Of a stretch of DNA of 64,000 bases, positions 970 to 30,733 are shown piece by piece. The notes below the pieces were generated by a model. The model saw only the letters and a list, made by a program, of their open reading frames with translations. It had not been told where the DNA came from and made no database searches. A program made the translations under genes and the position numbers. This DNA comes from Bacteriovoracaceae bacterium UBA3083 (GTDB lineage: Bacteria > Bdellovibrionota > Bacteriovoracia > Bacteriovoracales > Bacteriovoracaceae), in assembly GCA_002366565.1 (NCBI GenBank), contig DFBJ01000012.1:494950-558949 (forward strand). Direction: 5' to 3'. Within the stretch, counting starts at the first letter, position 1. Each line of letters starts with the position of its first letter.

Positions 970-2712
970 TTATTTACTTGCCCTTTGTCCAAATCTCTTA
1001 TTAATTCTAAGCACATTATATCTATTACTAATAACTTGAAAAATTGAGACTTCAGGTTTTTCTACAATTTGATTATCATCATAAATATACTCTTCACCTT
1101 CAGCTAAACCACTCTGAACATCAAGCTCATCACCAAGTGAACTATCATTATCACCTTCTAATTCAAGCCCCAAAGTTCCGAGAGAACTTTTCATATTAGA
1201 TAGATTTTTCAAACTACTCATTGATGATGAGAGTTTTTTCTTATCTTCTTTAAGCTCATTTGGAACATCTCCCTTATCAATAAGAGACGATATTCTGTCC
1301 ACATCAGGAAGGGCCATACTTTCTCCAAAAGATGAAGATAGGCTAGCATTTTCATTACCATAATTCTTTTTCAAAAAGGCCTTCATTTGTTTATTCTCAT
1401 CAAACATCTCGGCCTGAGCATCGCTTAATCTTCCTTTATCTTTTAATTGTTGAAGAACTCTCTGCTTAAAAGCACCTGCTCGATTTAAGTCCTTATCAAT
1501 GGCTAAACTAACACCACTATCAGAAAGGTTTAAATCTCCACTTAATCTCGCATCAGCTCTTTCTAATGCTCCAGTTAACCCAGATTTTCCAACGGCACTC
1601 GAGACAGTAGGACTTCCAAAAGAAACATTAAATGTTGGACAAGTTTTCCCAGAGTCATTACAACATTCTGTTGTAGGAACAGCTTCACACATATCAACTT
1701 CTGCAGCAGTTAAGTTCTTATTTGAAAAGCTATTGGCCTCACCATTAGCTTTAACATTTATAGGAGCTCCAGTACTGCCGTTAATAGCAAGTTGTGTAGA
1801 CAATGTCGTACTATCAATATGCTTCTTATTAAAAAAGTCCATATACTTATTAAGTATATTTTCTAGCTTTTCAGCTTCACTTTCATATTTATCTCTTGCA
1901 CTTGAAGCTGCATTTTTCATTTTTGTTCCAAGCACAAGTGATACAGTTGCACTTGCAGCAACCCAGCCTGCACACTTAACCTTATCCATTTGAACATTAG
2001 GTGGAATTGCATAAACTACGGCTTCAATAGCGGCAATTCCTAGAGATAATGAATACATAGTAACTTCTTGCTTATAACCATCTTCTCTAATTTTTGCAGA
2101 CTGTGCTCCTGCTAATAAAATTTGCCTATAGGCCTGCATTAACTTTATTTGCATTTCATAAGACGTACCCTTTGTACGCTCATTCTCCTCAATTAATGCA
2201 TCAAGGTTTTGTTTTGAAATTTTTAAAGTTTCCTTAACTTGTTTTTCCATATTTCTGTCATTCATAAATGACATTACACCTGTAGCAATTGACATCATTC
2301 CAGAAATACACATATTACTAAAAACATCTTTGGCGCTCTTAGCTGCACTATAAGCTTCATACAACTTATATGCTGCAATACCTGCACTAACAACAGATTT
2401 TGCAGTACCAACTTTTTGAATAGCTTTTTCTTTTTTGGATAGTTCAATATCTGTTGAATCAACTTGAGACTTAGGGTCCTGATCAAAACTTTGAACCATT
2501 TCATTACAAGAGTCTTTTCCGGCACCATCTGCTTTAGAGTCACACATCTTCTGCTTTTCATTAACTCTATTATCGTCTGCAGCATTTAGACATTGCTCTA
2601 CGGTTTCGTTCCAAATTAGTCCATCAGTACATTCTTCAGCAAGTCCAGAAGAGCTAGTACCAAAGAGGAGAACTAGTAAGAACGGGTAAATGAATCGTTT
2701 ACTAATTTTCAT
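970..2712 (-). CDS. secreted hypothetical protein (signal peptide, Cys-rich N-terminal region, coiled-coil/low complexity)
   Basis: 580-aa ORF. It has an N-terminal hydrophobic signal-like segment (MKISKRFIYPFLLVLLFGTSSSGLA) and several Cys in the first 100 aa. I recognise no conserved catalytic motifs. Confidence 0.5.
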   Translation of the reverse strand: MKISKRFIYPFLLVLLFGTSSSGLAEECTDGLIWNETVEQCLNAADDNRVNEKQKMCDSKADGAGKDSCNEMVQSFDQDPKSQVDSTDIELSKKEKAIQKVGTAKSVVSAGIAAYKLYEAYSAAKSAKDVFSNMCISGMMSIATGVMSFMNDRNMEKQVKETLKISKQNLDALIEENERTKGTSYEMQIKLMQAYRQILLAGAQSAKIREDGYKQEVTMYSLSLGIAAIEAVVYAIPPNVQMDKVKCAGWVAASATVSLVLGTKMKNAASSARDKYESEAEKLENILNKYMDFFNKKHIDSTTLSTQLAINGSTGAPINVKANGEANSFSNKNLTAAEVDMCEAVPTTECCNDSGKTCPTFNVSFGSPTVSSAVGKSGLTGALERADARLSGDLNLSDSGVSLAIDKDLNRAGAFKQRVLQQLKDKGRLSDAQAEMFDENKQMKAFLKKNYGNENASLSSSFGESMALPDVDRISSLIDKGDVPNELKEDKKKLSSSMSSLKNLSNMKSSLGTLGLELEGDNDSSLGDELDVQSGLAEGEEYIYDDNQIVEKPEVSIFQVISNRYNVLRINKRFGQRASK

Positions 2713-2879: not shown

Positions 2880-4745
2880 TTAAGAAGCTATCTTTCTAAG
2901 AATAAGAGATTCGTCTAAGTCAGCATAAGATTTATCGTACTCCTCTCTCGTTATCCCTTGAGCTTTACAGTAAGAGGCAATAACACCCTCTTTTATCGCT
3001 ACAATATCTAAATCCTGAGTCGCATCTTTGAGAATATTGTGAAAGATTCCGCTTTGTCTTGGATACTCTCCAATTATTGGAAATTCTTTTTGAGGTAGAT
3101 CATCCAAAAATCTTAAATATGGATAATAGTTAATGAGCCTCTCTGTTGTAACTTTGAGCTCCTCAATATTTCCAGGCCAACTATAACTTTCAAATGTATG
3201 CATTACAAATTCAGAAACCCTCTTAGATGGTAGTCCATACTGTGAACAAAGAAGGTCTAGAAAATGATTAACTAAACATGGTATGTCCTCTCTTCTATCT
3301 TTGAGATCAGGTACATGAAAATAGTTCTCAGAAAGAAAGCTATACAAACGTGTATCAAATTTTTCTTTTTCACATAAGTTCATCAGAGAGTTTGTTGATG
3401 TTGTAATAAGTCTAATATCTTCTCTATTTTTAAGTATGCTAAATAGTAAACTTTGACTCTCTATACTCAATTCTGATGGCTCATGGATAATTAGTGAGCC
3501 TCCAGAATAAAGTTCTATTTTTCCAACGTGATCAGAATCCCCTATCAACTGAACTTCTAAGTCCTTCTCATCAATAATAGACTCACAAAAAAGTGCTCCA
3601 ACAGGCATCTTACTTCTCGCACTACTGTGGTGTATCTTCTTACCAATATGTATCTTACCGACTCCGTGACTTCCTTCAATTAGGACATTTTCAACATGAG
3701 CACCCTGGCCATGAATAAATTCATTAACATTATCCATACCTTTACTACGTCCAATAATTACAGAATTATCAACATAACCTATATTATCTTCGAGGTGAGA
3801 AACAAACTCAGTTTTATCGAGATCACCAAAACAGAGTGTAAATATATTACTAAAAAGCTCTATGACAGAAAGATCTCTTTCACTATAGTTCTTAGATTTA
3901 TCAAAATTAATAAATTCAAAGAAGCCACATGCTTTGCCTTGCGAGTCTAAAACAGGAAAGTATAGAGCACTAGAGTAATCCTCCCCGCTTTTATTTAGTG
4001 GCATAGATGGAAAATTATCTAAATTTAAATCTCCAGACGATCTAATAATCTTGAAGGACTTCTTAGTTAAAACATCATTAGCGAGTTCTTGATTTTCAAG
4101 AGATGAATATTTATGAAACTCTTCATTATCAATATCATAACTATATAAATGGTCTCTTTTCTTATTTAGTAAAAATATTCTTCCAACTTCTGATTTAGAA
4201 AACCTACAACTCTCTTTAAAAATCATTTTAAGAAAATCGCTAATTCCTTTAAACTGCTTCATATCTAAAAATAGAGACAGAGACAAAGATAGTTTTTGTC
4301 CATCAGTAAATGTATTTATACGACTTTCATTAATAAGAAGAGTTATTAAGTGTTTTTTTAATCTACGGGTGCTAAAGCTAGATATAAATGAAGAAATGAA
4401 TTCCTTCCCATTATCTTGATCTTCAGTAAAGAATTCAATCCCATAGAGATAACTCTCAATTTCACCGAAAACATTATACTTAGGAATAAACCTTGCGACC
4501 TTTGAAGAGACATGAAAATGGTGGCCTTTGAATTTAAACTCTAACTCTAATATACCATCCTTCTCGAATGTCATACCAGACTCGAATGCTACACCAGAGA
4601 GGCTCACATTTGTTAATTTCCAAGAACTACTATCGTAATGAACAGGGTTCCCATTGTACTTAATTATATCCATAGTAATCTTGTCACTTTCAGTGACAGG
4701 AATTCGAAATGATCGATAAGACTTAAGTTTTACAATGTTATTCAT
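2880..4745 (-). CDS. PilZ-like N-terminal domain protein with GAF-like middle and degenerate sigma54-activator-type AAA+ domain (putative c-di-GMP effector)
   Basis: 621 aa. The N-terminus has YRSFR followed by NVSLSGVAF, matching the PilZ RxxxR…(D/N)xSxxG pattern. The C-terminal half aligns to the NtrC-family sigma54-interaction domain: GSHGVGKI resembles the Walker A GESGTGKE, and RREDIPCLVNHFL…WPGNIEEL resembles RxEDI…WPGNVREL. The GAFTGA loop is absent. It is a paralog of the divergent neighbour at 4835..6541. Confidence 0.6.
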   Translation of the reverse strand: MNNIVKLKSYRSFRIPVTESDKITMDIIKYNGNPVHYDSSSWKLTNVSLSGVAFESGMTFEKDGILELEFKFKGHHFHVSSKVARFIPKYNVFGEIESYLYGIEFFTEDQDNGKEFISSFISSFSTRRLKKHLITLLINESRINTFTDGQKLSLSLSLFLDMKQFKGISDFLKMIFKESCRFSKSEVGRIFLLNKKRDHLYSYDIDNEEFHKYSSLENQELANDVLTKKSFKIIRSSGDLNLDNFPSMPLNKSGEDYSSALYFPVLDSQGKACGFFEFINFDKSKNYSERDLSVIELFSNIFTLCFGDLDKTEFVSHLEDNIGYVDNSVIIGRSKGMDNVNEFIHGQGAHVENVLIEGSHGVGKIHIGKKIHHSSARSKMPVGALFCESIIDEKDLEVQLIGDSDHVGKIELYSGGSLIIHEPSELSIESQSLLFSILKNREDIRLITTSTNSLMNLCEKEKFDTRLYSFLSENYFHVPDLKDRREDIPCLVNHFLDLLCSQYGLPSKRVSEFVMHTFESYSWPGNIEELKVTTERLINYYPYLRFLDDLPQKEFPIIGEYPRQSGIFHNILKDATQDLDIVAIKEGVIASYCKAQGITREEYDKSYADLDESLILRKIAS

Positions 4746-4771
4746 AAGTTATACACCCTAAAGTAGACCTT

Positions 4772-4831
4772 TTATTTATCGGAAAAATTCTCTTTTTACT
4801 TAAACTATTAGAGATAAAAAACCGATAAATA
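4772..4831. promoter_or_regulatory. 10-bp perfect inverted repeat (tatttatcgg … ccgataaata) in divergent promoter region
   Basis: The arms are at 4772-4781/4782 and 4822-4831, separated by about 39 bp. They sit between the start codons of the two PilZ/sigma54-like paralogs, making this a candidate shared operator. Confidence 0.4.
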
Positions 4832-4834
4832 GCC

Positions 4835-6541
4835 ATGGGAAATGGTATAAATAACTTTAAATTCTATAGGTCCTTCAGAGTACGTTCAGAAATGAACGAT
4901 AAAATCTTTTTAAAGATTTCACTTATTGGAGAGAATAATATTCCAAGAACATTGAGTACTGACACTCGTTTAGTAGACTTCAATCTCTTTAGTCTTTCAT
5001 TTAAATCAAGTGTTCAAATTCCAATTGGTTCAAAAATTAAAATAGAAATATTCACCAAAAAGATTTTTAATAAATGGGACCTTGAAGTTGAAGGTATCGT
5101 AATAAGAAGTTTTCAAGAAAACACAGAAAAAAGAACCTATAATTATGGTGTAGAACTTATTGATCAATCTGAAGAGTCTGAACTTAAGTATTTTATAACA
5201 GACTATATCTCGGGTTTCTCTGGAAAGAAGCTCAAAGATTTTCTAGTTAAGTCTTCACTTTCAGTGAGAGAAATAAATGTTGATGATGGAGTGGAACTCT
5301 TTGGCCTTCTAACAGTTCTCTATCGAGAGTTTAGCACAGCTAATATAAATGATATTCTAGATCAGTGCGCACAGATTCTTCACTGTGAAGAAGTCAGAGT
5401 GTGGAAAATAAATGTTGAAAAAGACAAATTAGAAAATATCTACCATGACTCTAATTGTACTCATATAAAAGACAATTCTTTTAATAAGGGAGAACTAGGA
5501 AAGTGCTTTACTACATCTAGGTGTATTAATACTTTTTTGAAAGAGCCCAAAGAAAGAGAAGAAGATAAATTCACACTTGAAAATACACTATGCCTACCTC
5601 TTTTAAATAAAGAAAGAAAATGCATAGGAGTACTGCAATTCAACAATAAAAAAGGCGGTCAATTCTCAATTGCTGATGAGAATATGGGAAACTTCCTCTC
5701 TCTTGTTGTTGCTAAGAAGTTTTTTAACTTTGTAGTTAAAAGTAAATCAACCTCCATTGCACATTTAAACCCAGAGTTAAAAGATGTCTTTATCTACTTC
5801 GGCTCTACACAAAAGTCTTCGGCCATTAGATCTACTTTAAAAAAGCTTAAGTATGGAAAAACAAATGTAAATATTGTTGGAGAGAAAGGTCTAGGAAAAG
5901 ACTTCTTTGCAAAGTACTTATCTAATAATTCTGAAAAAGATATATTTAACTGTGAAGATCCAAAACAACTGAATAAAATAATCAACGAAACGCCACAATT
6001 CTCAAGCAGTCAAACATTGATCTTAAAAAACATAGATAAGCTCTCAGTCGACGATCAAAAGTCACTTTATAACTGGATACAATTCCAGGACTGTAAATTT
6101 ATCACTACAAGCTGTAGAGATTTAATTTATGAAGTTCAGATCGGTAAATTTAATAAATTACTTTTTAAGAAGTTAACACAATCTAGGTTTCATCTAACTC
6201 CTCTCAGAAATAGAAGAGAAGATATATTAACGATTGCAAAATATTTTATAAAAATAGAATGTAGAAAAAGAAATCTACCATTAAGAGAGCTTAGCCCTGA
6301 AAGTATGCAATTTGTAATGACTCATAACTGGCCAGGAAACATAACAGAGCTAGAGAAACTTATTAAGAAAAGCTTTATGACATCAAATAACAATACAGAG
6401 AACATTGAGTTAGAAGTAAAAGATATTCGAGGCTTTAAAAGTATAGAAGAAAAGTTAATCTTCTCATCAGACAATAGTATTCATCCAGATAAAATAATGG
6501 AAATGATAAATAACTCAATAAAGACAGGAAAAGCATCCTGA
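4835..6541 (+). CDS. PilZ-like/degenerate sigma54-activator-type AAA+ domain protein (paralog of 2880..4745)
   Basis: 568 aa. The N-terminus has the same FKFYRSFRVRSEM motif. The C-terminal region has VNIVGEKGLGKDF (Walker-A-like) and RREDILTIAKYFI…WPGNITELEKLI (sigma54-activator signature). GAFTGA is absent. Confidence 0.6.
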   Translation: MGNGINNFKFYRSFRVRSEMNDKIFLKISLIGENNIPRTLSTDTRLVDFNLFSLSFKSSVQIPIGSKIKIEIFTKKIFNKWDLEVEGIVIRSFQENTEKRTYNYGVELIDQSEESELKYFITDYISGFSGKKLKDFLVKSSLSVREINVDDGVELFGLLTVLYREFSTANINDILDQCAQILHCEEVRVWKINVEKDKLENIYHDSNCTHIKDNSFNKGELGKCFTTSRCINTFLKEPKEREEDKFTLENTLCLPLLNKERKCIGVLQFNNKKGGQFSIADENMGNFLSLVVAKKFFNFVVKSKSTSIAHLNPELKDVFIYFGSTQKSSAIRSTLKKLKYGKTNVNIVGEKGLGKDFFAKYLSNNSEKDIFNCEDPKQLNKIINETPQFSSSQTLILKNIDKLSVDDQKSLYNWIQFQDCKFITTSCRDLIYEVQIGKFNKLLFKKLTQSRFHLTPLRNRREDILTIAKYFIKIECRKRNLPLRELSPESMQFVMTHNWPGNITELEKLIKKSFMTSNNNTENIELEVKDIRGFKSIEEKLIFSSDNSIHPDKIMEMINNSIKTGKAS

Positions 6542-6585: not shown

Positions 6586-7113
6586 ATGGCCTCGATTACA
6601 CTTACGAGTGTTGAAGGATCGTCCTTTAAATACTCTCCTATAAGTAATAAATTTTCTAAGATAAAAGTACAAACTCCCCTTTATGAAAATGAAGTGATAA
6701 CAACCAGTAAAAAAGGGCTCACAGTCATCGACTTCAATGATGAAGTGATTGGCACAGTAGTGCTTGCTCCAAATACACAAGTGATATTAAGAAAGTCTAA
6801 TAGCGATGGTGTCAGACTGCTAAGTTTGATACGTGGACATATTAGACTTTATAGAGATAAAGAGTATGAGCAAAAAAAGGTTGGAGTACTCATTAATATA
6901 AGAGATAACCCTACCGCTTACCATGGTACTCATTATGAAATTCAATACTCTGAATCGACTAAATTAGTTACTAGTTTTAACAGTGATTTAAAAAAATATA
7001 AGCTAAATAAGAGCACTGTAACTTCAAAAGTTAATAAACCTGATACAGAGAAGACCGAGCAGCTCGATCAAGAGTTAGATGAAGATCTAAAATTCTTACT
7101 CGAAAATACCTAA
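6586..7113 (+). CDS. hypothetical protein
   Basis: 175-aa ORF, 44 bp downstream of and co-directional with the 4835..6541 gene. No recognisable motifs. Confidence 0.4.
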   Translation: MASITLTSVEGSSFKYSPISNKFSKIKVQTPLYENEVITTSKKGLTVIDFNDEVIGTVVLAPNTQVILRKSNSDGVRLLSLIRGHIRLYRDKEYEQKKVGVLINIRDNPTAYHGTHYEIQYSESTKLVTSFNSDLKKYKLNKSTVTSKVNKPDTEKTEQLDQELDEDLKFLLENT

Positions 7114-8096: not shown

Positions 8097-8999
8097 TTAA
8101 AATCTATAAAGGGGGCGAATCTCATGAGTCTTAAGCTCTTCCATCGCCTCTTTAAGATTCATTGTCATACCTAGGAGAAAGCCTCCTCCACCAGCACCAC
8201 ATAATTTTAAATAGAAATTATCATGCTCTAAACCAGTTTTCCATAACTCACTATAGAGGTTAGGAATCATCGGTCCAAAGTGTTTAAATTGAAAATCAGA
8301 CAGCTCTCTAAAGTTTTTAAAGAGGTTTTCTTTGTCATTGCTTAAAAATGATTCAATACAGCTATTTGTAATTGGAGCAAGAACGTTGTCACATAGGTTT
8401 TCAAAAGACTCTGTTTTGCACTTCTCTAAAAATAAATTCACTAGAGGTTCAGTTCTTCTAGGTCTACCAGTATTTAATAAAAAGATAGCACCTTCTCCAC
8501 TGCTCTTAGGTATATCTACCTTTTGATACTCACGAGATGCTGTCGTTAAAATAGGGCTATTAAAGTAACTAATAAGAGGATCAAAACCACTACTAGAGCC
8601 ATGAAAGTGTGATTCAAATTGAGCAAACACATTCTTTAAGTATCCAAGATTGGCACACTCTTGCTCACTGCAGGTAGAATAGTTCGCAAATATAGAAGCA
8701 ACAACGGCCCCAGAGCTACCTACTCCATAACCTTGTGGAATAGATGAATCAAAGAAGATTCCCTGCCCGATATCAAACTCAAAACTAGAAAGATCCATAG
8801 GGCATAGAAGCTCGCCTCTAGATTCTAGGTTTTTTAAATACTGACAAAAAGCACGAAGCTCACCATCTACCCTATCTTTCTTCTCTCGTGGAAAAGTTAG
8901 CTTTCCTTCAAAGAGCTGATACGGAACGGCCAATGCCATTGAATTTCTAATAATAGAATACTCTCCAAATAGGAGCACCTTGGAATAGAATGAGTCCAT
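8097..8999 (-). CDS. GHMP-family kinase, candidate mevalonate kinase
   Basis: 300 aa. It has a GHMP ATP-binding Gly/Ser-rich loop (GYGVGSSGAVVASIF) and an N-terminal LLFGEYSII motif. It is the last gene of the mevalonate operon. Assignment as MK versus PMK is by length and position only. Confidence 0.55.
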   Translation of the reverse strand: MDSFYSKVLLFGEYSIIRNSMALAVPYQLFEGKLTFPREKKDRVDGELRAFCQYLKNLESRGELLCPMDLSSFEFDIGQGIFFDSSIPQGYGVGSSGAVVASIFANYSTCSEQECANLGYLKNVFAQFESHFHGSSSGFDPLISYFNSPILTTASREYQKVDIPKSSGEGAIFLLNTGRPRRTEPLVNLFLEKCKTESFENLCDNVLAPITNSCIESFLSNDKENLFKNFRELSDFQFKHFGPMIPNLYSELWKTGLEHDNFYLKLCGAGGGGFLLGMTMNLKEAMEELKTHEIRPLYRF

Positions 9000-10088
9000 C
9001 TATAAAAACCTTTCGGGACCAGAACCTACTTTGTCATGAATTATTAATCCACCTTGAGCAAGAGGAGTTAATTCATTTATCATAAACTCATTAATTTCAT
9101 TTTTTATACTTTCTGGATAAAGAATATGTACATTTGGACCTGCATCCAACGTAAAGCAAATAGGTAAACCTGTTTCACTTCTAAATGCTCTTATCTTTTC
9201 TATAACTGCTAAAGTATTTGGTCTCATCAGTGTATAACTAGGAGATGAATTCATCATCAACCCATGAAGCTCGAGAGCTTCAGTTTCAACGATTTCACAA
9301 AATTGATCAACATCTCCAGATTTCATAACCTCAACGAGTAAGGCAAGTTGATCATTAGCATGCTTAAATCTTACGTCTCTAAAAGGGTGCGCCTCCATTA
9401 AAGCATGTCCGGCCCTAGAGCTAACCGCTTTTTCACCAGCATCAACAATTACAATAGAGTCTTGATACGTTTTAAATACGTCAGCAATACCTTCAACTGT
9501 TGCGGCCTTCTCATCAGTAGACTTAATATCTTCAAGATCCGATTTTCCCCAACTCACGATTCCAGGAAATACAGAACGTGAAGCACTACCTGAAGCTAGC
9601 CTTGCAATATATGTGGCCTTATCTAATATTTCTTCTTCACTTTGATTTAAGTCAAATGCCTGATCTTCGATTGTACATAATCCAAGAGCTAGAGCAGACA
9701 TACTTGAGGCACTAGAAGCGATTCCAGCAGAATGAGGAAATGAGTTCGTTGACTCAATCTCTAGACTTAAATATTTTAAGAATGGAAAGAGTTCAAAGTT
9801 ATCTTCTAAAAATTTTCTAATTTTATTTTCGAAGGCTTCATTTTTCTTATTTTCAAAATAGAAGTCTAAAACAATTTCATCTTTACCACCGTCTTTAATA
9901 GACCATGAAAAATCCATAGTTGTTTTTGATTCATTTAGAGTAAAACTAATAGATGGATTACAAGGTAATTGCTTACCATGTTTACCCCAATACTTAATTA
10001 GAGCAATATTTGATGGAGAGGTCCAAGAGACTCTTCCCGTGTCTTCTATTAATTCTTTCTTCGTATACTTTTTAATGTAGGAATTCAT
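9000..10088 (-). CDS. mvaD: diphosphomevalonate decarboxylase
   Basis: 362 aa. The N-terminal …SPSNIALIKYWGK… and GIASSASSMSALA are GHMP-fold MVD signatures. It lies within the mevalonate operon. Confidence 0.8.
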   Translation of the reverse strand: MNSYIKKYTKKELIEDTGRVSWTSPSNIALIKYWGKHGKQLPCNPSISFTLNESKTTMDFSWSIKDGGKDEIVLDFYFENKKNEAFENKIRKFLEDNFELFPFLKYLSLEIESTNSFPHSAGIASSASSMSALALGLCTIEDQAFDLNQSEEEILDKATYIARLASGSASRSVFPGIVSWGKSDLEDIKSTDEKAATVEGIADVFKTYQDSIVIVDAGEKAVSSRAGHALMEAHPFRDVRFKHANDQLALLVEVMKSGDVDQFCEIVETEALELHGLMMNSSPSYTLMRPNTLAVIEKIRAFRSETGLPICFTLDAGPNVHILYPESIKNEINEFMINELTPLAQGGLIIHDKVGSGPERFL

Positions 10089-11106
10089 TCTTTTGATCTT
10101 GTTTACTAGTATTTAATATCATTTCATCATAAGGGATAAAAACTTCAAGTCCTTTATCTAAAAAGTACTTACGTGTCTCTTCCTTAGGTCTATCACTTGT
10201 CACAAGAACGAAATCTCCCCCCCAAGCTCCAAGAGATTTAACTTCTCCCCAGTAATTAGAGAAAAGTTCATCTTTCACAGGTTTAAGATCGAGAGTTTTT
10301 GAAATAATCTTTTCATGAGCCCCAATTAAGAATTCAAACTCTTTTAAACTCTTTGATTTAGAGATCTCATTTGTAATATCAGAGATACTTAGAATTATAC
10401 CTGGGTCAATTGGTCTTAAGCTATTGTAATACTCAATCGCCTTTCTAGAGTCCTGTTTTTGACCTCTATAAACAAAGTAAAGATTTTCACTATACTTTGG
10501 TTCAAACACAGTAGGAGACCACTTAGGTCCATTTGTATTTCGAGAGTAGAAAATAGGACCATCAGATTGAGCGCAAGCAACATCGTAACCAGATCCACCA
10601 TAAGTCTCAAACTGAAGTTCAAATGGGCTCACATACGCCCATTGTGCCATATTATGAACAAGAGTAGAGCTAGAACCTAGCCCCCACTCCAGTGGAAACC
10701 CTAAGTGAGTTTCAACGTGCACATCAATATCATCTCTTAAGAAGTGAGGGTTTTGCTTTCTTGCTTGTCTTAATATCTTTTGAAGAACGAGCTCTTTAGG
10801 AGTTGGATTAACACTAGTTATTTCAAATCTCCAAAACTCAAATACAGTCTCAAACCATAAATTCCCTGCTACATCAAAACTCTTCCAATATAGTTTTGGA
10901 GAAAAAGATGGAGAATATTTAACATTAAGTGATTGTCCGACCGTTGTAGGAAGCGCTAATGACTGAGCACCATCTAAAACGAAATACTCTCCAGTTAAGA
11001 GAAGCTTTCCATGACCGTAGAATGTGTGGTCATTTGTCTTATCATTAATATTTCTATTAGATTTTATTTCCCTGATTAATTCAGGTTCTTTATTTTCTAA
11101 AATCAC
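10072..11106 (-). CDS. GHMP-family kinase, candidate phosphomevalonate kinase
   Basis: 344 aa. It has HGKLLLTGEYFVLDGAQSLALP and a GLGSSSTLV GHMP loop. It overlaps mvaD by 17 nt, and its start overlaps the HMGR stop. Confidence 0.55.
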   Translation of the reverse strand: MILENKEPELIREIKSNRNINDKTNDHTFYGHGKLLLTGEYFVLDGAQSLALPTTVGQSLNVKYSPSFSPKLYWKSFDVAGNLWFETVFEFWRFEITSVNPTPKELVLQKILRQARKQNPHFLRDDIDVHVETHLGFPLEWGLGSSSTLVHNMAQWAYVSPFELQFETYGGSGYDVACAQSDGPIFYSRNTNGPKWSPTVFEPKYSENLYFVYRGQKQDSRKAIEYYNSLRPIDPGIILSISDITNEISKSKSLKEFEFLIGAHEKIISKTLDLKPVKDELFSNYWGEVKSLGAWGGDFVLVTSDRPKEETRKYFLDKGLEVFIPYDEMILNTSKQDQKNEFLH

Positions 11107-12425
11107 TGATAGTTCCTTAGACCTGCGATAAAGTCTCTAACACTATTAAAAGAGATCACTTGAGTTTCAAATTCGATTCTTGCTTTTTCTCTCTCTTCAT
11201 CATTTGCTTCTAAATGATTAAGAATATTCATAAGGTGCATTTTCATATGCCCCTTTTGGATCCCTGTCGTTACAAGTGATCTTACCGCTCCAAAGTTTTG
11301 AGCAAGCCCGATCGCTGCAGTGATCATCATTAACTCCTTAGCATTTGGAGCACCAAGCATATCTAATGAAATTTTAGACATTGGGTGAAGAGAAGTCAGT
11401 CCACCTACTGTACCAAGGGCAAGAGGGATCTCAATTTCAAATTTAAATTTGTCACCTTCTATAGAACAACTACTTAAGCTTGAGTACTGACCATTTCTTG
11501 CAGCATAGGCATGTCCACAGGCCTCAATAGCTCTAAAGTCATTACCTGTCGCCAAAACAACAGCATCAATACCATTGAAGATACCTTTATTATGAGTAAC
11601 AGCTCTATTAACATCTTTCTGAGCTATTCTTACAGCTCTTGAAAACTTATGTGCAAACTCTTGCGCACTCATTCCAAGACCACTTTCTTCAAGGTCTTTT
11701 ATATCACACTCAACCCATGCTTTTACTAAGCACTTAGGCGTGTAATTAGATAGAATACACATAACAATTTGAACATCTCTATGTGCTTCTTCAAATTTAT
11801 CATTAAGAAGAATTTGTTCTTCCCATTTTTTTCCTAGGGCCTCTAATACACTATTAATAAAGTTAGCACCCATTGCATCACAAGTTTCAAACTCACCGTG
11901 TAGCTGGTAATAACCTTCTTCCATATCAGAGCAATCTTTTAGCTCTAAAGAAAGTAGCCCTCCGCCTCTCTTATTCATATTTACGACAAGAGGCTCAATA
12001 CTTTGGATTAGCTCTTCCTTAGATTCTTCAAATAAATTAAAGAGGTCTTCAGACCTTCCATTCCAAATAAAGTGAACCTGTCCTACTTTAGTCGTAGAGA
12101 TAACTTCAGCCTTAAAACCACCACGCTCTAACCAAAACTTTGCAGCTTTAGCACTAGCAGCAACTACAGAAGACTCTTCTATAACCATTGGTATGCAGTG
12201 TATTTTATTATTTAATAGAAAATTAGGAACTACTCCGTATGGAGCATAAAAATTTGTAATTGTATTTTCTGAAAAGTCGTCAAAAACTTTCTGCTCAACT
12301 TCACTGTCGTGCCAAAAACTCTTAATCTTATCTTTAGAAAACCTGCTACCATTTAAAAAGTTATCAACTAGATAGTTGATTTTTTCTAACTTAGTAAGTT
12401 TTGAAAAACCGCTGATTATATTCAA
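11103..12425 (-). CDS. mvaA: hydroxymethylglutaryl-CoA reductase (class II, degradative/bacterial type)
   Basis: 440 aa. Length is typical of class II HMGR, with the DAMGANFIN motif and a C-terminal GT…GL…G region. Confidence 0.85.
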   Translation of the reverse strand: MNIISGFSKLTKLEKINYLVDNFLNGSRFSKDKIKSFWHDSEVEQKVFDDFSENTITNFYAPYGVVPNFLLNNKIHCIPMVIEESSVVAASAKAAKFWLERGGFKAEVISTTKVGQVHFIWNGRSEDLFNLFEESKEELIQSIEPLVVNMNKRGGGLLSLELKDCSDMEEGYYQLHGEFETCDAMGANFINSVLEALGKKWEEQILLNDKFEEAHRDVQIVMCILSNYTPKCLVKAWVECDIKDLEESGLGMSAQEFAHKFSRAVRIAQKDVNRAVTHNKGIFNGIDAVVLATGNDFRAIEACGHAYAARNGQYSSLSSCSIEGDKFKFEIEIPLALGTVGGLTSLHPMSKISLDMLGAPNAKELMMITAAIGLAQNFGAVRSLVTTGIQKGHMKMHLMNILNHLEANDEEREKARIEFETQVISFNSVRDFIAGLRNYQ

Positions 12426-12437
12426 GTCTTAGACCCC

Positions 12438-13454
12438 TTATCTCAGTTTTAAAAATGCCTTTGCCATTTTTAACGTTTCAATTTGACCAGATACAAATGC
12501 TCTAAGTTCTTCAAGATCAGTTGCATGATCTAGATAGCCCTTAGCTCTTCCAACAACATTATTCAGAGCACACTTTTCACTTAGCCAATGGCCATAAAGC
12601 GTGTCTGAAATTCCACCTGAAATAATAATATCTCTGCAAAGGCAGTTGTCGCCTAATTCACTCTGTAATAGGTTTATCTGATCTACCATTTCTAGTGCAG
12701 TATGTCCAACAAACATTAGATCATGTAACTTTGAGCTATATTTAGAATTCTCTCGTAATTTCTCTAACTTAGAGAAGTTAGTCCCACCAAAAGATGCTAG
12801 CTCTAGGCCTTTTAATGGTAGTTCTAAGAGCTTTTTAATAGATCTTGGACCCATGCCCTGACCTACTTCTTTCACGACAACAGGAATCTGCGCTACAACT
12901 ACCGTTTCAATAGTTTCTAGAGCTGGTTTTTTATAAGTATCACCTTCAGGTTGAAACCATTCCTGGAGTGGGTTCACATGTATAATTAATCCGTCAGCAT
13001 CGAGTTTAGTAATTAGTTCTCTAACTCTATTCAACTCATTTGCTTCAATTAGCTCCTCTAGTTGAGCGATACCTAAGTTGGCCCAAAATGGTAAATCTTT
13101 ACCCAGAATTGGTCTTAGATTAAAGTCCTCAAAGTCACGATCACTTTCTAACAGTGGGCGACATGATCCTAGCGCCATACCAAGTCCAAATTCTGCTGCA
13201 ACCTTGGCAAGATTTTGATTAATGATACGAGCTTCACCTGTACCACCTGTCATACTAGAGATCCACAGAGGAGCTGATACGCGTTTTCCGAGAAATTCCT
13301 TAGATAAGTCTATACTCTCAGGGTGAGCTGAAAATATAGGCTCATAATCAAAGAGTTGATTTAAGTTATCTTTTTCGATCTGAGCATCATTGGCCAATTG
13401 AATATGTGCATATTTTCTATCTGATAAATTTCCCATAGAAGCTAGGTAGCACAA
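12438..13454 (-). CDS. fni: isopentenyl-diphosphate delta-isomerase, type 2 (FMN-dependent)
   Basis: 338 aa. It has the IDI-2 signature …SAPLWISSMTGGTG… and a TIM-barrel FMN-binding region (GLELASFGGTNF, IISGGI). Confidence 0.85.
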   Translation of the reverse strand: MCYLASMGNLSDRKYAHIQLANDAQIEKDNLNQLFDYEPIFSAHPESIDLSKEFLGKRVSAPLWISSMTGGTGEARIINQNLAKVAAEFGLGMALGSCRPLLESDRDFEDFNLRPILGKDLPFWANLGIAQLEELIEANELNRVRELITKLDADGLIIHVNPLQEWFQPEGDTYKKPALETIETVVVAQIPVVVKEVGQGMGPRSIKKLLELPLKGLELASFGGTNFSKLEKLRENSKYSSKLHDLMFVGHTALEMVDQINLLQSELGDNCLCRDIIISGGISDTLYGHWLSEKCALNNVVGRAKGYLDHATDLEELRAFVSGQIETLKMAKAFLKLR

Positions 13455-24681: not shown

Positions 24682-24838
24682 AAGATTTAAATGATATTTT
24701 GTCACCGATAAAATCAGTGGCAAAATATCTCTAGTTCCACTTTGCCCCTCACCCATTTTCCTAATTCCAACAAGAAGACGCATCGCAAATCCTTAAATTC
24801 TTTGGCATAATTCTTGCTCATTTCAATCTACTATTTAA

Positions 24839-26092
24839 ATGAAATGGGAGAATATTTTGAAACACATCTTATGTTTGCTAGGACTAGCCCTGGTATTTGT
24901 AAATCACACACACGCTCAAGACAATGTACAAATCGATTATAACCTTCAAGGTTCTGAGCAAGTAACTCTTCAGGATACTCGAGAAGTGACTCTTTATAGA
25001 ACTGAGTATGTAAACAGTACTTGCTCAAGGCAAGAACCATATACTGATACAGAGTGTGGCAATGAAACACGCTACAGAAATGAGTGTACATGGGTTCCTG
25101 GAAGGAATGTATGTAGGACAGAGAATGACTATCAATGCCGTAATGTTAGAAGAACAAGAAGGGAATGTACTGCGGGAAGAACGCGTAGAGAATGCGTTAA
25201 TGAACCTGCAAGAAGAGTATGTAGAACAAGAAATGGTGTCGAAAGATGTACTAACGTCCCAGGAAGACAAAGATGTAGAGACGTAAGTGGTCCACAGACA
25301 TGTAGAAACGTTCCTTATACTGAGAGAGAATGTAATAATGTTCCACGTCGTGTATGTGACTACATCCCAGGTGGTAATGAATGTAGAAATGTACCTTACC
25401 AAGAATATGTTTGTAGAGATGTTACAAGATATAGAACTGTAGACTATGCCTGTAAAAAGCCTGTTCAAGTTCCATATCAAGTTGAAAAAAGTTTTACTTA
25501 TGAAGTGAACTTCAACTTCAAAGATGTAGATCAACTTGGTAGAGCGACAATCAAAGCAGTAATAGATAAAGAAGGTCTACTTAAATTACATTACACAAAC
25601 TTAAATACATCAGAGACTTATATTAACCTTCTAAGTGATAACCAAGAAGCTCTTATAAATAGTGATTCTGAGTATAAAGGTTTAAGAAATATAGAAATTA
25701 ACTTTGGAAATCTTGAAAAATTAACAGCTCCAATGAAGACAAATATGAAGTCGTTATGGATGAATAAATCTGGTGATTTTAAATTAACGCTCACTCAGCC
25801 TGACTTACTAGAAAATGCCAAGATCAAAGTAAGAGTTTTTAAAAGATCTAATAACAATTTACACTTTTCAAAAGAGCTTGAGTTATCTGACTTTAGAGTT
25901 TCAAATAAAGATATAAAAGCTGACTTTTCTACTTTTGGATTTGACACACTGAAAGGTTTATTTGGAAAAGGAGTAAAACTAAAAGTAGAAGTATCAGTAA
26001 TGGCAGAAGAGCCAGAAAACCTACTTGTTCCAATAGAAAATGAACTTAAAAAGAGTAAGAGTTTTAATATAAAGGTTTATAAAAATAAATAA
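24839..26092 (+). CDS. secreted protein with about 14 tandem Cys-spaced short repeats (C-R/T-N/D-V-P…)
   Basis: 417 aa with a signal peptide (LCLLGLALVFVNHTHA). Residues about 70-200 consist of 9-11-aa units each containing one Cys (CRNVPYTERE / CNNVPRRV / CRNVPYQEYV / CRDVSGPQT …). The C-terminal about 200 aa is non-repetitive. Confidence 0.5.
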   Translation: MKWENILKHILCLLGLALVFVNHTHAQDNVQIDYNLQGSEQVTLQDTREVTLYRTEYVNSTCSRQEPYTDTECGNETRYRNECTWVPGRNVCRTENDYQCRNVRRTRRECTAGRTRRECVNEPARRVCRTRNGVERCTNVPGRQRCRDVSGPQTCRNVPYTERECNNVPRRVCDYIPGGNECRNVPYQEYVCRDVTRYRTVDYACKKPVQVPYQVEKSFTYEVNFNFKDVDQLGRATIKAVIDKEGLLKLHYTNLNTSETYINLLSDNQEALINSDSEYKGLRNIEINFGNLEKLTAPMKTNMKSLWMNKSGDFKLTLTQPDLLENAKIKVRVFKRSNNNLHFSKELELSDFRVSNKDIKADFSTFGFDTLKGLFGKGVKLKVEVSVMAEEPENLLVPIENELKKSKSFNIKVYKNK

Positions 26093-30643: not shown

Positions 30644-30733
30644 AGGTGACTTATCGGATAAACTTAAAATAACTATGAATGTTTTCTTGCATATTCCACA
30701 GATATCATTTAATAATATTAAAAAGAGGAACTT

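What the first reader, a model, noticed from the sequence alone, without database searches (positions are those of the whole stretch)
2880..6541. Divergent pair of paralogous PilZ-like / degenerate sigma54-activator AAA+ proteins sharing a promoter region with a perfect 10-bp inverted repeat
Both proteins start with a PilZ-like segment (YRSFR … NVSLSG, i.e. RxxxR and (D/N)xSxxG). Both end with a domain clearly derived from the NtrC-family sigma54-interaction module (Walker-A-like GxxGxGK, RREDI…WPGN(I/V)xEL). The GAFTGA sigma54-contact loop and conserved catalytic residues are missing, and no obvious DNA-binding HTH is present. This looks like a c-di-GMP-sensing ATPase-dead 'pseudo-enhancer-binding protein'. 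It has been duplicated and placed head-to-head with a 10-bp perfect inverted repeat (tatttatcgg/ccgataaata) between the two starts. The FleQ AAA+ domain is known to bind c-di-GMP. A PilZ plus dead-AAA+ fusion is an unusual combination worth characterising as a signalling hub, for example in predatory lifestyle switching.
Basis: partly seen in the sequence, partly recalled or inferred. Interest (0 to 1): 0.6.

Follow-up and report, generated by a model that had tools for sequence, protein, structure and literature searches.

The report
Paired PilZ–GAF pseudo-activators with FliA promoters
A marine predatory bacterium (Halobacteriovorax) carries two ancient back-to-back sister genes for signalling proteins built from a c-di-GMP-receptor-type domain, a GAF sensor and a disabled sigma-54-activator ATPase, and the 'inverted repeat' between them is best read as the two -10 boxes of a pair of flagellar-sigma-factor (attack-phase type) promoters, not as a regulator binding site.

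Summary
There are two divergent ORFs, A (2880-4745, minus strand, 621 aa) and B (4835-6541, plus strand, 568 aa). They are paralogues (25% identity, E 4e-29) and flank a perfect 10-bp inverted repeat.

Both have the architecture PilZ-like barrel, GAF, then a sigma54-type AAA+ domain with lid. The GAFTGA loop is deleted. Walker B, the arginine fingers and the sensor-II arginine are lost. No HTH_8 is detected.

Two motif claims are wrong:
- YRSFR is RxxR, not RxxxR, and no family member has RxxxR.
- NVSLSG occurs only in A; B has DFNLFS and no PilZ HMM match.

The inverted repeat is not an operator. Each arm reads CCGATAAATA toward its own gene. With a shared central TTAAG/TTAAA, the arms match the Bdellovibrio attack-phase FliA (sigma28) consensus TTAAG-N16-CCGATA. 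These are the only two matches in 64 kb, and they are conserved in orthologous loci. B has CCGATA-N7-ATG, the geometry of mapped leaderless FliA promoters.

Also found:
- Distant relatives keep a full HTH_8.
- Nearly the whole family ends in ...[AV][SA], which resembles a ClpX degron.

Verdict: an uncharacterised, lineage-specific variant of GAFTGA-less activator-like regulators, probably attack-phase signalling proteins. Function is inferred.

The parts
2880..4745 (-). Gene A, 621 aa: PilZ-like, GAF, degenerate sigma54-type AAA+ with lid, C-terminal tail. Orthologues are 91-51% identical in Halobacteriovorax.
4392..4745 (-). A residues 1-118: PilZ-fold beta-barrel plus C-terminal helix. It has an N-terminal KSYRSFR (RxxR) arm and an intact N46-V-S-L-S-G51 motif.
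3828..4304 (-). A residues 148-306: GAF domain.
   Evidence: Pfam GAF_2 E 3.8e-5, below the gathering score. Profile positions about 150-310 hit multi-GAF proteins at E down to 1e-67. The model shows a GAF-like alpha/beta fold.
3126..3758 (-). A residues 330-540: sigma54-activator-type AAA+ domain plus lid. Walker A is kept (GSHGVGK). The GAFTGA loop is deleted. Walker B is IIHE. The arginine fingers are lost (FDTRLYSF). Sensor II is WPGNIEEL.
2883..3125 (-). A residues 541-621. Contains the conserved YYPYLRFLDxLPQKEFPIIG segment, a vestigial acidic remnant of HTH_8 (VIASYCKAQGITREEYDKSY), and the extreme C-terminus ...RKIAS.
4777..4803 (-). Predicted FliA/sigma28-type promoter of A: TTAAG (4803-4799), 16-nt spacer, CCGATA (4782-4777). 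It matches the Bdellovibrio attack-phase consensus exactly. The predicted TSS is near 4768, giving a leader of about 23 nt with an AGGGTG SD-like box.
4800..4827 (+). Predicted FliA/sigma28-type promoter of B: TTAAA (4800-4804), 17-nt spacer, CCGATA (4822-4827). Seven nucleotides separate the hexamer from the ATG at 4835, so the mRNA is predicted to be leaderless. No SD is present.
4773..4782 (.). Left arm of the 10-bp inverted repeat (TATTTATCGG). On the minus strand it reads CCGATAAATA and is the -10 box of promoter A.
4822..4831 (.). Right arm of the 10-bp inverted repeat (CCGATAAATA). It is the -10 box of promoter B.
4835..6541 (+). Gene B, 568 aa: degenerate PilZ-like domain (residues 1-122), GAF (about 150-297), degenerate AAA+ (322-457), lid (458-521), short tail ending ...TGKAS. 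Walker A is GEKGLGK. Walker B is LILKN. The GAFTGA region has a larger deletion than in A.
6586..7113 (+). 175-aa ORF 44 nt downstream of B. It is a probable operon partner in part of the family: it abuts or overlaps B's stop in L004 and L006 and is absent in L005. No family match.
970..2712 (-). 580-aa ORF downstream of A on the same strand. It has a signal-peptide-like N-terminus and no family match. It is syntenic in L003, L004 and L006 and absent in L005.

Best explanation
A and B are an anciently duplicated pair of lineage-specific signalling proteins of Halobacteriovorax and its relatives.

Origin (inferred from the family). They derive from a GAFTGA-less, sigma54-independent activator-like transcription factor with the architecture PilZ-GAF-AAA+-HTH_8. 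Both have lost DNA binding.

Shown by sequence or structure prediction:
- Each protein has an N-terminal PilZ-fold domain, a GAF domain, and an AAA+ module with lid.
- The AAA+ module keeps the P-loop lysine.
- It lacks the sigma54-contact loop and the catalytic residues (Walker B aspartate, arginine fingers, sensor-II arginine).
- It therefore cannot remodel sigma54-RNA polymerase and almost certainly cannot hydrolyse ATP.
- The two genes are preceded by back-to-back promoters with overlapping -35 boxes. These match the FliA/sigma28 attack-phase consensus of Bdellovibrio (TTAAG-N16-CCGATA).
- B has the -10-to-ATG spacing of experimentally mapped leaderless FliA transcripts.

Inferred:
- Both proteins are made together in the motile attack phase.
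- They assemble through the AAA+ and GAF domains, plausibly as A/B hetero-oligomers.
- A integrates a nucleotide signal through its PilZ domain, possibly c-di-GMP bound in a non-canonical way. A second ligand or a partner acts through GAF. B is a degenerate, non-sensing partner.
- Output is by protein-protein interaction (scaffolding or sequestration), not by binding DNA or activating sigma54.
- The family-wide C-terminal ...[KR]x[AV][SA] tail acts as a ClpXP-type degron that removes the proteins when FliA-driven synthesis stops.
For: Architecture and dead ATPase:
- Pfam, PDB and alignment results.
- AAA+ fold match to PspF/NtrC1/FleQ/NtrX/VpsR.

PilZ fold:
- for A.
- B's N-terminus is homologous to A's.

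GAF.

Pair conservation and synteny:
- The same contigs carry both families.
- Divergent pairs are seen in L003-L006 and L008.

Promoters:
- The published consensus TTAAG-N16-CCGATA occurs in 92/140 attack-phase promoters (PMC3627812).
- A matches it exactly; 0.05 matches are expected per window.
- A and B give the only two matches to TTAAR-N15-17-CCGAYA in 64 kb; 0.33 are expected.
- Both are conserved in L001-L004, and A's also in L006.
- TTAAG and CCGA.A are invariant at fixed spacing while the flanks diverge.
- No sigma70-like site lies in the spacer.

Leaderless geometry:
- 21 FliA promoters in Table S2 of PMC3627812 have their TSS at the first nucleotide of the start codon.
- Their spacing is CCGAxA-N8 (18 cases) or N7 (3 cases).
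- B and its orthologues have N7 or N8.

Loss of the HTH: distant relatives carry a full HTH_8, and A has a deleted remnant.

C-terminal tail:
- 63/72 family members end in [AV][SA].
- Only A and B do so among 50 ORFs of the window.
- The ssrA (..LAA) and MuA (..RRKKAI) degron classes are described in PMC12723719.
- The clpP operon itself has a FliA promoter in Bdellovibrio.
Against: - No experimental data exist for Halobacteriovorax: no TSS map and no proof that its FliA uses the Bdellovibrio consensus. The only support is a statement that FliA sites are predicted in other BALOs (PMC5430801).
- The window holds no flagellar gene that could calibrate the motif.
- B's -35 box has one mismatch and a 17-nt spacer. 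In the most distant pairs (L005, L008) only the CCGA core is recognisable.
- The first arginine of RxxxR is Tyr or Phe in every family member, so c-di-GMP binding is doubtful.
- Hetero-oligomerisation, ClpXP targeting and the output are inferences with no direct test.
- A retains a two-helix remnant that could conceivably still touch DNA.
- Retention of the Walker A lysine shows constraint but not which nucleotide binds, if any.
Confidence: 0.6

Rival explanations
1. First reader's model. The 10-bp inverted repeat is an operator through which A and/or B autoregulate their shared promoter region. Both proteins are c-di-GMP-sensing PilZ receptors.
For: - The inverted repeat is real and its core is conserved in orthologous loci.
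- A has a PilZ fold and an intact [D/N]hSxxG motif.
Against: - Neither protein has a detectable DNA-binding domain. A's remnant is acidic and lacks one helix.
- The arms are 49 bp apart centre to centre. Each, together with a conserved TTAAG at 16-17 nt, forms a complete FliA-type promoter pointing at its own gene.
- B lacks both PilZ motifs and any PilZ HMM match.
Confidence: 0.07
2. A, and perhaps B, still work as sigma70-dependent DNA-binding transcription factors of the NtrX/VpsR/TyrR type. They would use the C-terminal helices, or DNA-binding partners, with PilZ and GAF as sensory inputs.
For: - The closest solved relatives by sequence are NtrX, NtrC1 and VpsR.
- Distant family members have a bona fide HTH_8, and the roughly 648-aa A-like proteins have an HTH-like C-terminus.
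- The model of A has helices at 581-596 and 600-607.
- bd1891, an NtrC-family regulator in B. bacteriovorus, is also attack-phase-specific with a FliA promoter.
Against: - No HTH_8 hit in A or B.
- A has a deletion of about 20 residues in that region. Its putative recognition helix is acidic (ITREEYDKS) and poorly conserved among orthologues.
- B's tail has no counterpart at all.
Confidence: 0.15
3. The PilZ-like domains are ligand-blind adaptor domains, like type II PilZ proteins such as Xanthomonas PilZ. The proteins sense only through GAF or through partner proteins, and c-di-GMP is irrelevant.
For: - Canonical RxxxR is absent in all 72 family members: Tyr or Phe sits at the first arginine position, and R11 varies among R, K, Q and H.
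- B has lost motif II.
- PilZ domains lacking these motifs are reported not to bind c-di-GMP (bioRxiv 10.1101/814665).
Against: - The A-type and HTH-bearing clades keep [D/N]hSxxG strictly.
- All keep the last arginine (R14) and a disordered N-terminal arm. That pattern of constraint is what a nucleotide-binding site would show.
- A PilZ with an altered second motif (PA2989) still binds.
Confidence: 0.35
4. A and B are dominant-negative 'anti-activators'. Being ATPase-dead subunits, they co-assemble with genuine sigma54 activators (for example the flagellar FleQ/FlrC-type regulators) and poison their rings. This would shut early sigma54-dependent genes once FliA is active.
For: - The AAA+ fold and lid are well preserved although the catalytic residues are gone.
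- Predicted FliA-dependent expression would give the right timing.
Against: - This is purely inferential. No interaction data exist and no sigma54 activator is linked in the locus.
- NtrX-type GAFTGA-less domains are not known to form mixed rings (my knowledge).
Confidence: 0.12

Closest known systems
GAFTGA-less, sigma54-independent activator homologues (NtrX of Brucella, VpsR of Vibrio cholerae, TyrR)
   Same: - Sigma54_activat-type AAA+ domain plus lid without the GAFTGA loop.
- They are the best sequence and structure matches (NtrX 5m7n E 3.6e-19; VpsR 7v2b).
- N-terminal sensory domains.
- VpsR responds to c-di-GMP (PMC6158489, listed).
   Different: - Those proteins keep a C-terminal HTH and act on DNA with sigma70-RNAP. 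A and B have none.
- Their sensors are REC or ACT/PAS domains, not PilZ plus GAF.
- A and B also lack the Walker B aspartate, the arginine fingers and sensor II.
- They occur as a conserved divergent pair.
FleQ (Pseudomonas aeruginosa)
   Same: Activator-type AAA+ domain that serves as a c-di-GMP receptor and controls flagellar and biofilm genes (PMC7288161). It is a structural match.
   Different: - FleQ has GAFTGA, ATPase activity and an HTH.
- It binds c-di-GMP in the AAA+ domain, not through a PilZ domain.
- The FleQ binding residues were not tested here.
PilZ-domain effectors of the flagellar regulon (YcgR of E. coli, MotI/DgrA of B. subtilis)
   Same: - The N-terminal arm aligns to YcgR's RRRYFR (my recollection of the YcgR sequence).
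- E. coli ycgR is a FliA class-3 gene (my knowledge), like the FliA-type promoters here.
   Different: - YcgR and MotI are small PilZN-PilZ proteins with canonical RxxxR. They act on the flagellar motor.
- A and B carry GAF plus a dead AAA+ domain and have RxxR.
MrkH (Klebsiella), a PilZ-containing transcription factor
   Same: A PilZ domain serves as the sensory module of a regulator. It gives the best TM-score (0.64) to the N-terminal model.
   Different: MrkH binds DNA through its PilZ-like domains and has no AAA+ or GAF domain.
FliA/sigma28 attack-phase promoters of Bdellovibrio bacteriovorus (Karunker et al. 2013)
   Same: - Same -35/-10 sequence and spacing.
- Same -10-to-ATG distance as the mapped leaderless members.
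- The regulon there also includes an NtrC-family regulator (bd1891), GGDEF genes and clpP.
   Different: - The organism belongs to a different family (Halobacteriovorax) and no TSS data exist for it.
- The back-to-back arrangement with overlapping -35 boxes is not described in that paper.

Membership tests
Bacterial enhancer-binding proteins (sigma54 activators) | AAA+ domain of the Sigma54_activat type with its lid | tested here: met
   - Pfam PF00158/PF14532/PF25601 hits in A and B.
- Foldseek TM about 0.8 to PspF, NtrC1 and FleQ.
Bacterial enhancer-binding proteins (sigma54 activators) | GAFTGA loop that contacts sigma54 | tested here: not met
   - A has a 9-residue gap at that position against NtrC1.
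- B has a larger deletion.
- The loop is absent in all 72 family members.
Bacterial enhancer-binding proteins (sigma54 activators) | Catalytic set: Walker B hhhhDE, arginine fingers, sensor-II arginine | tested here: not met
   - Walker B: A has IIHE, B has LILKN.
- Arginine-finger region: FDTRLYSF in A, FNKLLFKK in B.
- Sensor II: WPGNIEEL in A, WPGNITEL in B.
- Only the Walker A GxxGxGK is kept.
- ATPase activity itself was not assayed.
Bacterial enhancer-binding proteins (sigma54 activators) | C-terminal Fis-type HTH (HTH_8) | tested here: not met
   - No PF02954 hit in any A- or B-type member.
- A retains a vestige.
- HTH_8 is present only in a distant clade.
PilZ domain c-di-GMP receptors (PF07238) | Six-stranded beta-barrel with a C-terminal helix | tested here: met
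   - Model of A residues 1-118 has pLDDT 76.
- The top 15 Foldseek hits are all PilZ domains.
- B is assigned by homology only (hhalign 98.4%).
PilZ domain c-di-GMP receptors (PF07238) | Pfam HMM match above the gathering score | tested here: inconclusive
   - The isolated N-terminus of A scores 24.3 bits against GA 22.5 (E 4e-5).
- Orthologues score up to 33.5 bits.
- 12/19 A-family members match.
- B family: 0/17, and none even at E<=10.
PilZ domain c-di-GMP receptors (PF07238) | RxxxR motif in the N-terminal arm | tested here: not met
   - The family-wide motif is [KQ]-h-[YF]-[RKQ]-S-F-R. Only the last arginine is invariant.
- Tyr or Phe occupies the first-arginine position.
- Register taken from the HMM coordinates 13-116 to 6-96 and my knowledge of the PilZ consensus.
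PilZ domain c-di-GMP receptors (PF07238) | [D/N]hSxxG motif | tested here: inconclusive
   - Met in A (NVSLSG; S48 and G51 invariant) and in the HTH-bearing clade.
- Not met in B (DFNLFS; the B clade has D-h-N-L-x-[SG]).
PilZ domain c-di-GMP receptors (PF07238) | Binding of c-di-GMP | not testable with these tools
   Needs DRaCALA, ITC or MST with purified domains.
GAF domain | Profile match and fold | tested here: met
   - A: GAF_2 E 3.8e-5, sub-threshold.
- B family: 8/17 match GAF, best 3.3e-7.
- The family profile hits multi-GAF proteins at E as low as 1e-67 over positions about 150-310.
GAFTGA-less sigma70-type activator-like regulators (NtrX/VpsR/TyrR) | Degenerate AAA+ domain combined with a functional HTH that binds promoter DNA | tested here: not met
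   - The AAA+ part fits.
- The HTH is missing in A and B.
- The distant clade P0130/133/139/140/141/146/147/149/151 (HTH motif found), and P0177 by alignment, would qualify.
FliA/sigma28-dependent promoters (BALO attack-phase consensus TTAAG-N16-CCGATA) | -35 and -10 sequences at the right spacing upstream of the gene | tested here: met
   - A matches exactly.
- B is TTAAA-N17-CCGATA.
- These are the only two matches in 64 kb.
- Consensus taken from PMC3627812.
FliA/sigma28-dependent promoters (BALO attack-phase consensus TTAAG-N16-CCGATA) | Conservation of the elements in orthologous loci | tested here: met
   - Both promoters are present in L001-L004, and A's in L006.
- TTAAG and CCGA.A are invariant in alignment A6.
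- Only the CCGA core is kept in L005 and L008.
FliA/sigma28-dependent promoters (BALO attack-phase consensus TTAAG-N16-CCGATA) | Transcription start at the predicted place and dependence on FliA | not testable with these tools
   Only the geometry could be compared: N7/N8 between the hexamer and the ATG, as in 21 mapped leaderless Bdellovibrio promoters.
ClpX C-terminal degrons (C-motif 1 ssrA ..LAA; C-motif 2 MuA ..RRKKAI) | Exposed C-terminal basic/small-aliphatic tail recognised by ClpX | tested here: inconclusive
   - 63/72 family members end in [AV][SA], and 51/72 have K or R at position -3 or -4.
- The tail has low pLDDT.
- 0/48 other ORFs in the window end this way.
- This is resemblance only. 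Degradation was not tested.

The most novel reading that the evidence does not exclude
A and B form an attack-phase-specific heteromeric pseudo-AAA+ assembly.
- Its synthesis is set by FliA. One subunit is translated from a leaderless mRNA.
- Its removal is set by a ClpXP degron.
- It is gated by a cyclic dinucleotide bound through a non-canonical (RxxR) PilZ site and by a GAF ligand.
- It acts as a timer or checkpoint for the predator's switch from attack to growth phase, for example by sequestering sigma54 activators or flagellar/pilus components.

This would be a new output mode for activator-derived proteins: no DNA, no sigma54, no ATP hydrolysis.
Probability: 0.15. Interest if true: 0.75.

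Novelty: new variant of a known kind. Interest (0 to 1): 0.5.

Why it matters
Predatory Bdellovibrio-like bacteria switch between a motile attack phase and an intracellular growth phase. FliA and c-di-GMP are the two known master inputs, but few effectors that connect them are known.

This locus offers a conserved, uncharacterised candidate. It is a pair of sensor proteins predicted to belong to the FliA regulon. They carry a PilZ-type domain and a GAF sensor fused to a catalytically dead activator module.

If the inferences hold, the family would show three things:
- How a DNA-binding, activator-like regulator was converted into a DNA-free signalling scaffold.
- That the FliA attack-phase promoter grammar, including leaderless transcripts, extends from Bdellovibrio to the marine Halobacteriovorax.
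- A natural RxxR variant on which the sequence rules for PilZ ligand binding could be tested.

It also corrects database annotation: these proteins are labelled 'sigma 54-interacting transcriptional regulator', which they cannot be.

Tried and rejected
Searches that gave nothing or little:
- Pfam on the full-length proteins gave no PilZ hit at E<=1. Only isolated N-termini and orthologues did.
- Profile searches of the N-terminal domain against PDB sequences found nothing. Fold comparison was needed.
- The genome-contig scan with the N-terminal profile returned only 2 loci.
- The third homologous-protein search, with the 28-sequence N-terminal profile, returned nothing. The taxonomy of the distant clades therefore remains unknown. 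The listing of cluster members gave no names.
- The afdb50 fold library was unavailable.
- NCBIfam gave only far-sub-threshold activator equivalog hits.
- Rfam and tRNA scans of the window were empty.
- Literature searches for PilZ fused to sigma54-type AAA+ domains found no described example.

Ideas considered and rejected:
- Inverted repeat as an RNA hairpin or terminator. Given the predicted start sites, neither transcript contains both arms, and no terminator-like site is there.
- Inverted repeat as sigma70 -10 boxes. The conserved bases are CCGAYA, not TAnnnT, and no sigma70-like match lies in the spacer.
- Inverted repeat as an operator. See the rival explanations.
- The E. coli-style pattern TAAA-N14-17-CCGATA gave one extra intragenic match (47996-48019), judged to be chance.

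Not resolved:
- The small ORF downstream of B was checked against Pfam, NCBIfam and PDB without result.
- The FleQ-type c-di-GMP residues in the AAA+ domain could not be checked reliably, because no reference alignment was available.

Full report
**What is there**

The window has about 34% G+C. It carries two divergent ORFs at the reported coordinates: A at 2880-4745 (minus strand, 621 aa) and B at 4835-6541 (plus strand, 568 aa). An 89-bp spacer separates them.

A and B align over about 550 residues at 25% identity, E 4e-29, so they are paralogues.

The closest database proteins are from Halobacteriovorax sp. and H. marinus. The A family is 91-51% identical. For B there is a 100% identical entry on a 1.8-Mb contig.

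The two families sit on the same contigs. In every locus fetched they are adjacent and divergent:
- L003 (H. marinus CP017414), L004 and L006.
- L005, where the pair is only about 35% identical to the window proteins.
- L008, a still more remote pair.

The duplication is therefore old, and the pair, not the single gene, is the conserved unit.

**Domain architecture**

*AAA+ module.* Pfam finds Sigma54_activ_2 / Sigma54_activat plus AAA_lid_14 in both proteins. B reaches E 6e-36 for Sigma54_activ_2. A has a sub-threshold GAF_2 hit. Neither has HTH_8.

*GAF.* GAF is supported in B's orthologues (8/17 members, best 3e-7). A family profile also hits multi-GAF proteins over positions about 150-310 at E down to 1e-67.

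*Full-length model of A* (pLDDT 76.7) shows these segments:
- barrel, residues 14-105;
- linker helices, 107-143;
- GAF, 148-306;
- a disordered linker;
- AAA+, 335-480;
- lid, 481-540;
- C-terminal helices.

Foldseek places the AAA+ part on PspF, NtrC1, FleQ, NtrX and VpsR, with TM about 0.8 relative to the target.

*State of the AAA+ motifs.* Alignment to NtrX and NtrC1 and the family alignments show:

| Feature | A | B |
|---|---|---|
| Walker A | GSHGVGK (kept) | GEKGLGK (kept) |
| GAFTGA loop | deleted, 9-residue gap | larger deletion |
| Walker B (DE) | IIHE | LILKN |
| Arginine-finger positions | not Arg | not Arg |
| Sensor II (WPGNxREL) | WPGNIEEL | WPGNITEL |

The G, G, G and K of Walker A are invariant across both families. 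None of the 72 family members has GAFTGA.

**The N-terminal domain**

An AlphaFold model of A residues 1-118 has pLDDT 76.
- With Foldseek, its top 15 PDB matches are all PilZ domains: Alg44, YcgR, MotI, BcsA, PlzA, MrkH and CeSA.
- Scanned on its own, it passes the Pfam PilZ threshold (24.3 against 22.5 bits). Orthologues score higher, and 12/19 A-family members match.

B's N-terminus gives no PilZ hit even at E<=10. It is nevertheless clearly homologous to A's (hhalign 98.4%, E 7e-15).

- 'YRSFR' is RxxR. HMM coordinates and comparison with YcgR's RRRYFR (my knowledge) place R14 at the last arginine of RxxxR and Tyr10 where the first arginine should be.
- Across 72 relatives the motif is [KQ]-h-[YF]-[RKQ]-S-F-R, with only R14 invariant.
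- Motif II ([D/N]hSxxG) is intact in A (NVSLSG) and in the HTH-bearing relatives. In the whole B clade it is replaced by D-h-N-L-x-[SG].

Binding of c-di-GMP is therefore possible but non-canonical for A, and unlikely for B.

**The inverted repeat**

The repeat is TATTTATCGG (4773-4782) and CCGATAAATA (4822-4831). It is real and perfect.

A repeat this long occurs in about 1% of shuffled or genomic 89-bp windows, so length alone does not make it remarkable.

Each arm reads CCGATAAATA in the direction of the nearest gene. Karunker et al. mapped 140 attack-phase promoters in Bdellovibrio bacteriovorus. They found the FliA/sigma28 consensus TTAAG-N16-CCGATA in 92 of them (PMC3627812).
- On the minus strand, 4803-4777 is TTAAG-N16-CCGATA exactly. 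0.05 matches are expected per window.
- On the plus strand, 4800-4827 is TTAAA-N17-CCGATA.
- These are the only two matches to TTAAR-N15-17-CCGAYA in 64 kb, where 0.33 are expected.
- The two -35 boxes overlap.

*Conservation.* Both promoters are present in L001-L004, and A's in L006. In the alignment of six spacers, TTAAG and CCGA.A are invariant at fixed spacing while the flanking bases drift. The most remote pairs keep TATCGG...GCCGATAA (L008) or CATCGG...ACGAAA (L005).

*Alternatives.* No sigma70-like promoter is predicted in the spacer.

The repeat is best explained as the two -10 boxes of back-to-back FliA-type promoters. It is unlikely to be an operator, and the proteins have nothing obvious to bind it with.

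**A leaderless B mRNA**

B has no Shine-Dalgarno sequence. Its ATG lies 7 nt after CCGATA. In the orthologues the distance is 7 or 8 nt.

In Table S2 of Karunker et al., 21 FliA-positive promoters have the mapped TSS on the first nucleotide of the start codon. Their spacing is CCGAxA-N8-A(+1) in 18 cases and N7 in 3.

B therefore has the geometry of experimentally defined leaderless FliA transcripts.

A is predicted to have a leader of about 23 nt with an AGGGTG box.

That FliA governs attack-phase genes, is essential in Bdellovibrio, and is predicted to act in other BALOs including H. marinus comes from PMC5430801. There is no direct evidence for Halobacteriovorax.

**Family history**

A sensitive profile search found about 45 cluster representatives (at 50% identity) with the full PilZ-GAF N-terminus and lengths of 550-680 aa. 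Their sequences show three groups:
- One clade has a complete Fis-type HTH_8 (..GNKSKAA..MGISREALRKK..): P0130, 133, 139, 140, 141, 146, 147, 149, 151 and 177.
- A-like proteins of about 648 aa have a divergent HTH-like C-terminus.
- The 621-aa A type has a deletion of about 20 residues, leaving an acidic remnant (VIASYCKAQGITREEYDKSY). The B type has nothing there.

The likely ancestor was a PilZ-GAF-AAA+(GAFTGA-less)-HTH regulator of the NtrX/VpsR kind. A and B are derivatives that lost DNA binding.

**A conserved C-terminal tail**

In 63 of 72 family members the last two residues are [AV][SA]. K or R is at position -3 or -4 in 51. Examples are ...RKIAS...GKAS...KKVA and ...KKAA. The preceding linker is variable.

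Among 50 ORFs of the window, only A and B end this way.

The tail resembles the ClpX C-motif degrons: ssrA ..LAA and MuA ..RRKKAI (PMC12723719). In Bdellovibrio the clpP operon itself carries a FliA promoter.

This suggests timed proteolysis but proves nothing.

**Most likely mechanism**

*Shown:* the architecture, the loss of the sigma54 contact and catalytic residues, the promoter matches, and the conservation.

*Inferred:*
- co-expression in the attack phase;
- assembly through the AAA+ and GAF domains, perhaps as A/B hetero-oligomers;
- sensing by A's PilZ domain and by GAF;
- output by protein-protein interaction;
- removal by ClpXP.

*Rivals:*
- residual DNA binding (0.15);
- ligand-blind PilZ domains (0.35, a sub-question);
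- ring-poisoning of genuine sigma54 activators (0.12);

**Comparison and novelty**

The nearest known kinds are:
- the GAFTGA-less activator homologues NtrX, VpsR and TyrR;
- FleQ as a c-di-GMP-binding AAA+ regulator;
- FliA-regulon PilZ proteins such as YcgR.

A and B fail the defining tests for a sigma54 activator (GAFTGA, catalytic residues, HTH). They also fail the tests for a canonical PilZ receptor (RxxxR; and for B, motif II and the HMM).

I found no described PilZ-GAF-AAA+ protein in the literature searched.

I rate this a new variant of a known kind with moderate interest. The database label 'sigma 54-interacting transcriptional regulator' is misleading.

Noticed in passing
window 6586-7113 (+): A 175-aa ORF lies 44 nt downstream of B. 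Its counterparts in L004 and L006 abut or overlap B's stop codon, which suggests translational coupling. It is shorter in L003 and absent in L005. It has no Pfam, NCBIfam or PDB match.
   Followed up: partly
window 970-2712 (-): A 580-aa ORF downstream of A has a signal-peptide-like N-terminus (MKISKRFIYPFLLVLLFGTSSSGLA) and no family match. It is syntenic in L003, L004 and L006 but missing in the distant locus L005.
   Followed up: partly
window 30651-30657 (-), upstream of ORF 29426-30643: CCGATAA lies 7 nt upstream of the ATG of an unannotatable 405-aa ORF. This is the same hexamer-to-ATG distance as in gene B. It may be another leaderless FliA-type promoter, but no TTAAG-like -35 box lies at 16 nt.
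   Followed up: partly
window 24705-24711 (+): CCGATAA lies in the intergenic region about 130 nt upstream of a 417-aa ORF (24839-26092) that has no family match. The sequence further upstream was not examined.
   Followed up: no
proteins P0130, P0133, P0139-P0141, P0146, P0147, P0149, P0151, P0177; locus L007 5001-6905: A distant clade of the same family keeps a full HTH_8 (PilZ-GAF-AAA+ without GAFTGA, then HTH). In L007 the gene is a singleton directly upstream of a cdaA (diadenylate cyclase)-ybbR-glmM operon. It has a CTAAA-N16-ACGATA site about 100 nt upstream of its start.
   Followed up: partly
all 72 family members; window 2883-2894 and 6527-6538: The extreme C-terminus ...[KR]x[AV][SA]-COOH is conserved in 63/72 members despite unconserved linkers. 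It is found in no other ORF of the window. It resembles a ClpX degron.
   Followed up: partly
locus L008 3181-6695: Another divergent pair (558 aa and 564 aa) occurs in an unnamed 2.4-Mb assembly (GCA_048267245.1). It has TATCGG...GCCGATAA in its 143-bp spacer and lies near enoyl-CoA hydratase and GHMP-kinase genes, as in the window.
   Followed up: partly
PMC3627812 Table S2 (B. bacteriovorus): - About a quarter of the mapped FliA-type attack-phase promoters (21) are leaderless.
- The Bd2102 promoter contains TATTTATCGG-N5-GCCGATAAG, i.e. a similar back-to-back pair of -10 boxes.
- bd1891 (an NtrC-family regulator) and clpP (bd3754) have FliA promoters.
   Followed up: partly
window 8097-13454 (-): A mevalonate-pathway gene cluster lies next to the pair. 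It includes a GHMP-kinase-like gene and a diphosphomevalonate decarboxylase gene; L005 shows HMG-CoA reductase upstream. The linkage is conserved in all fetched loci and shows no obvious functional connection to the pair.
   Followed up: no
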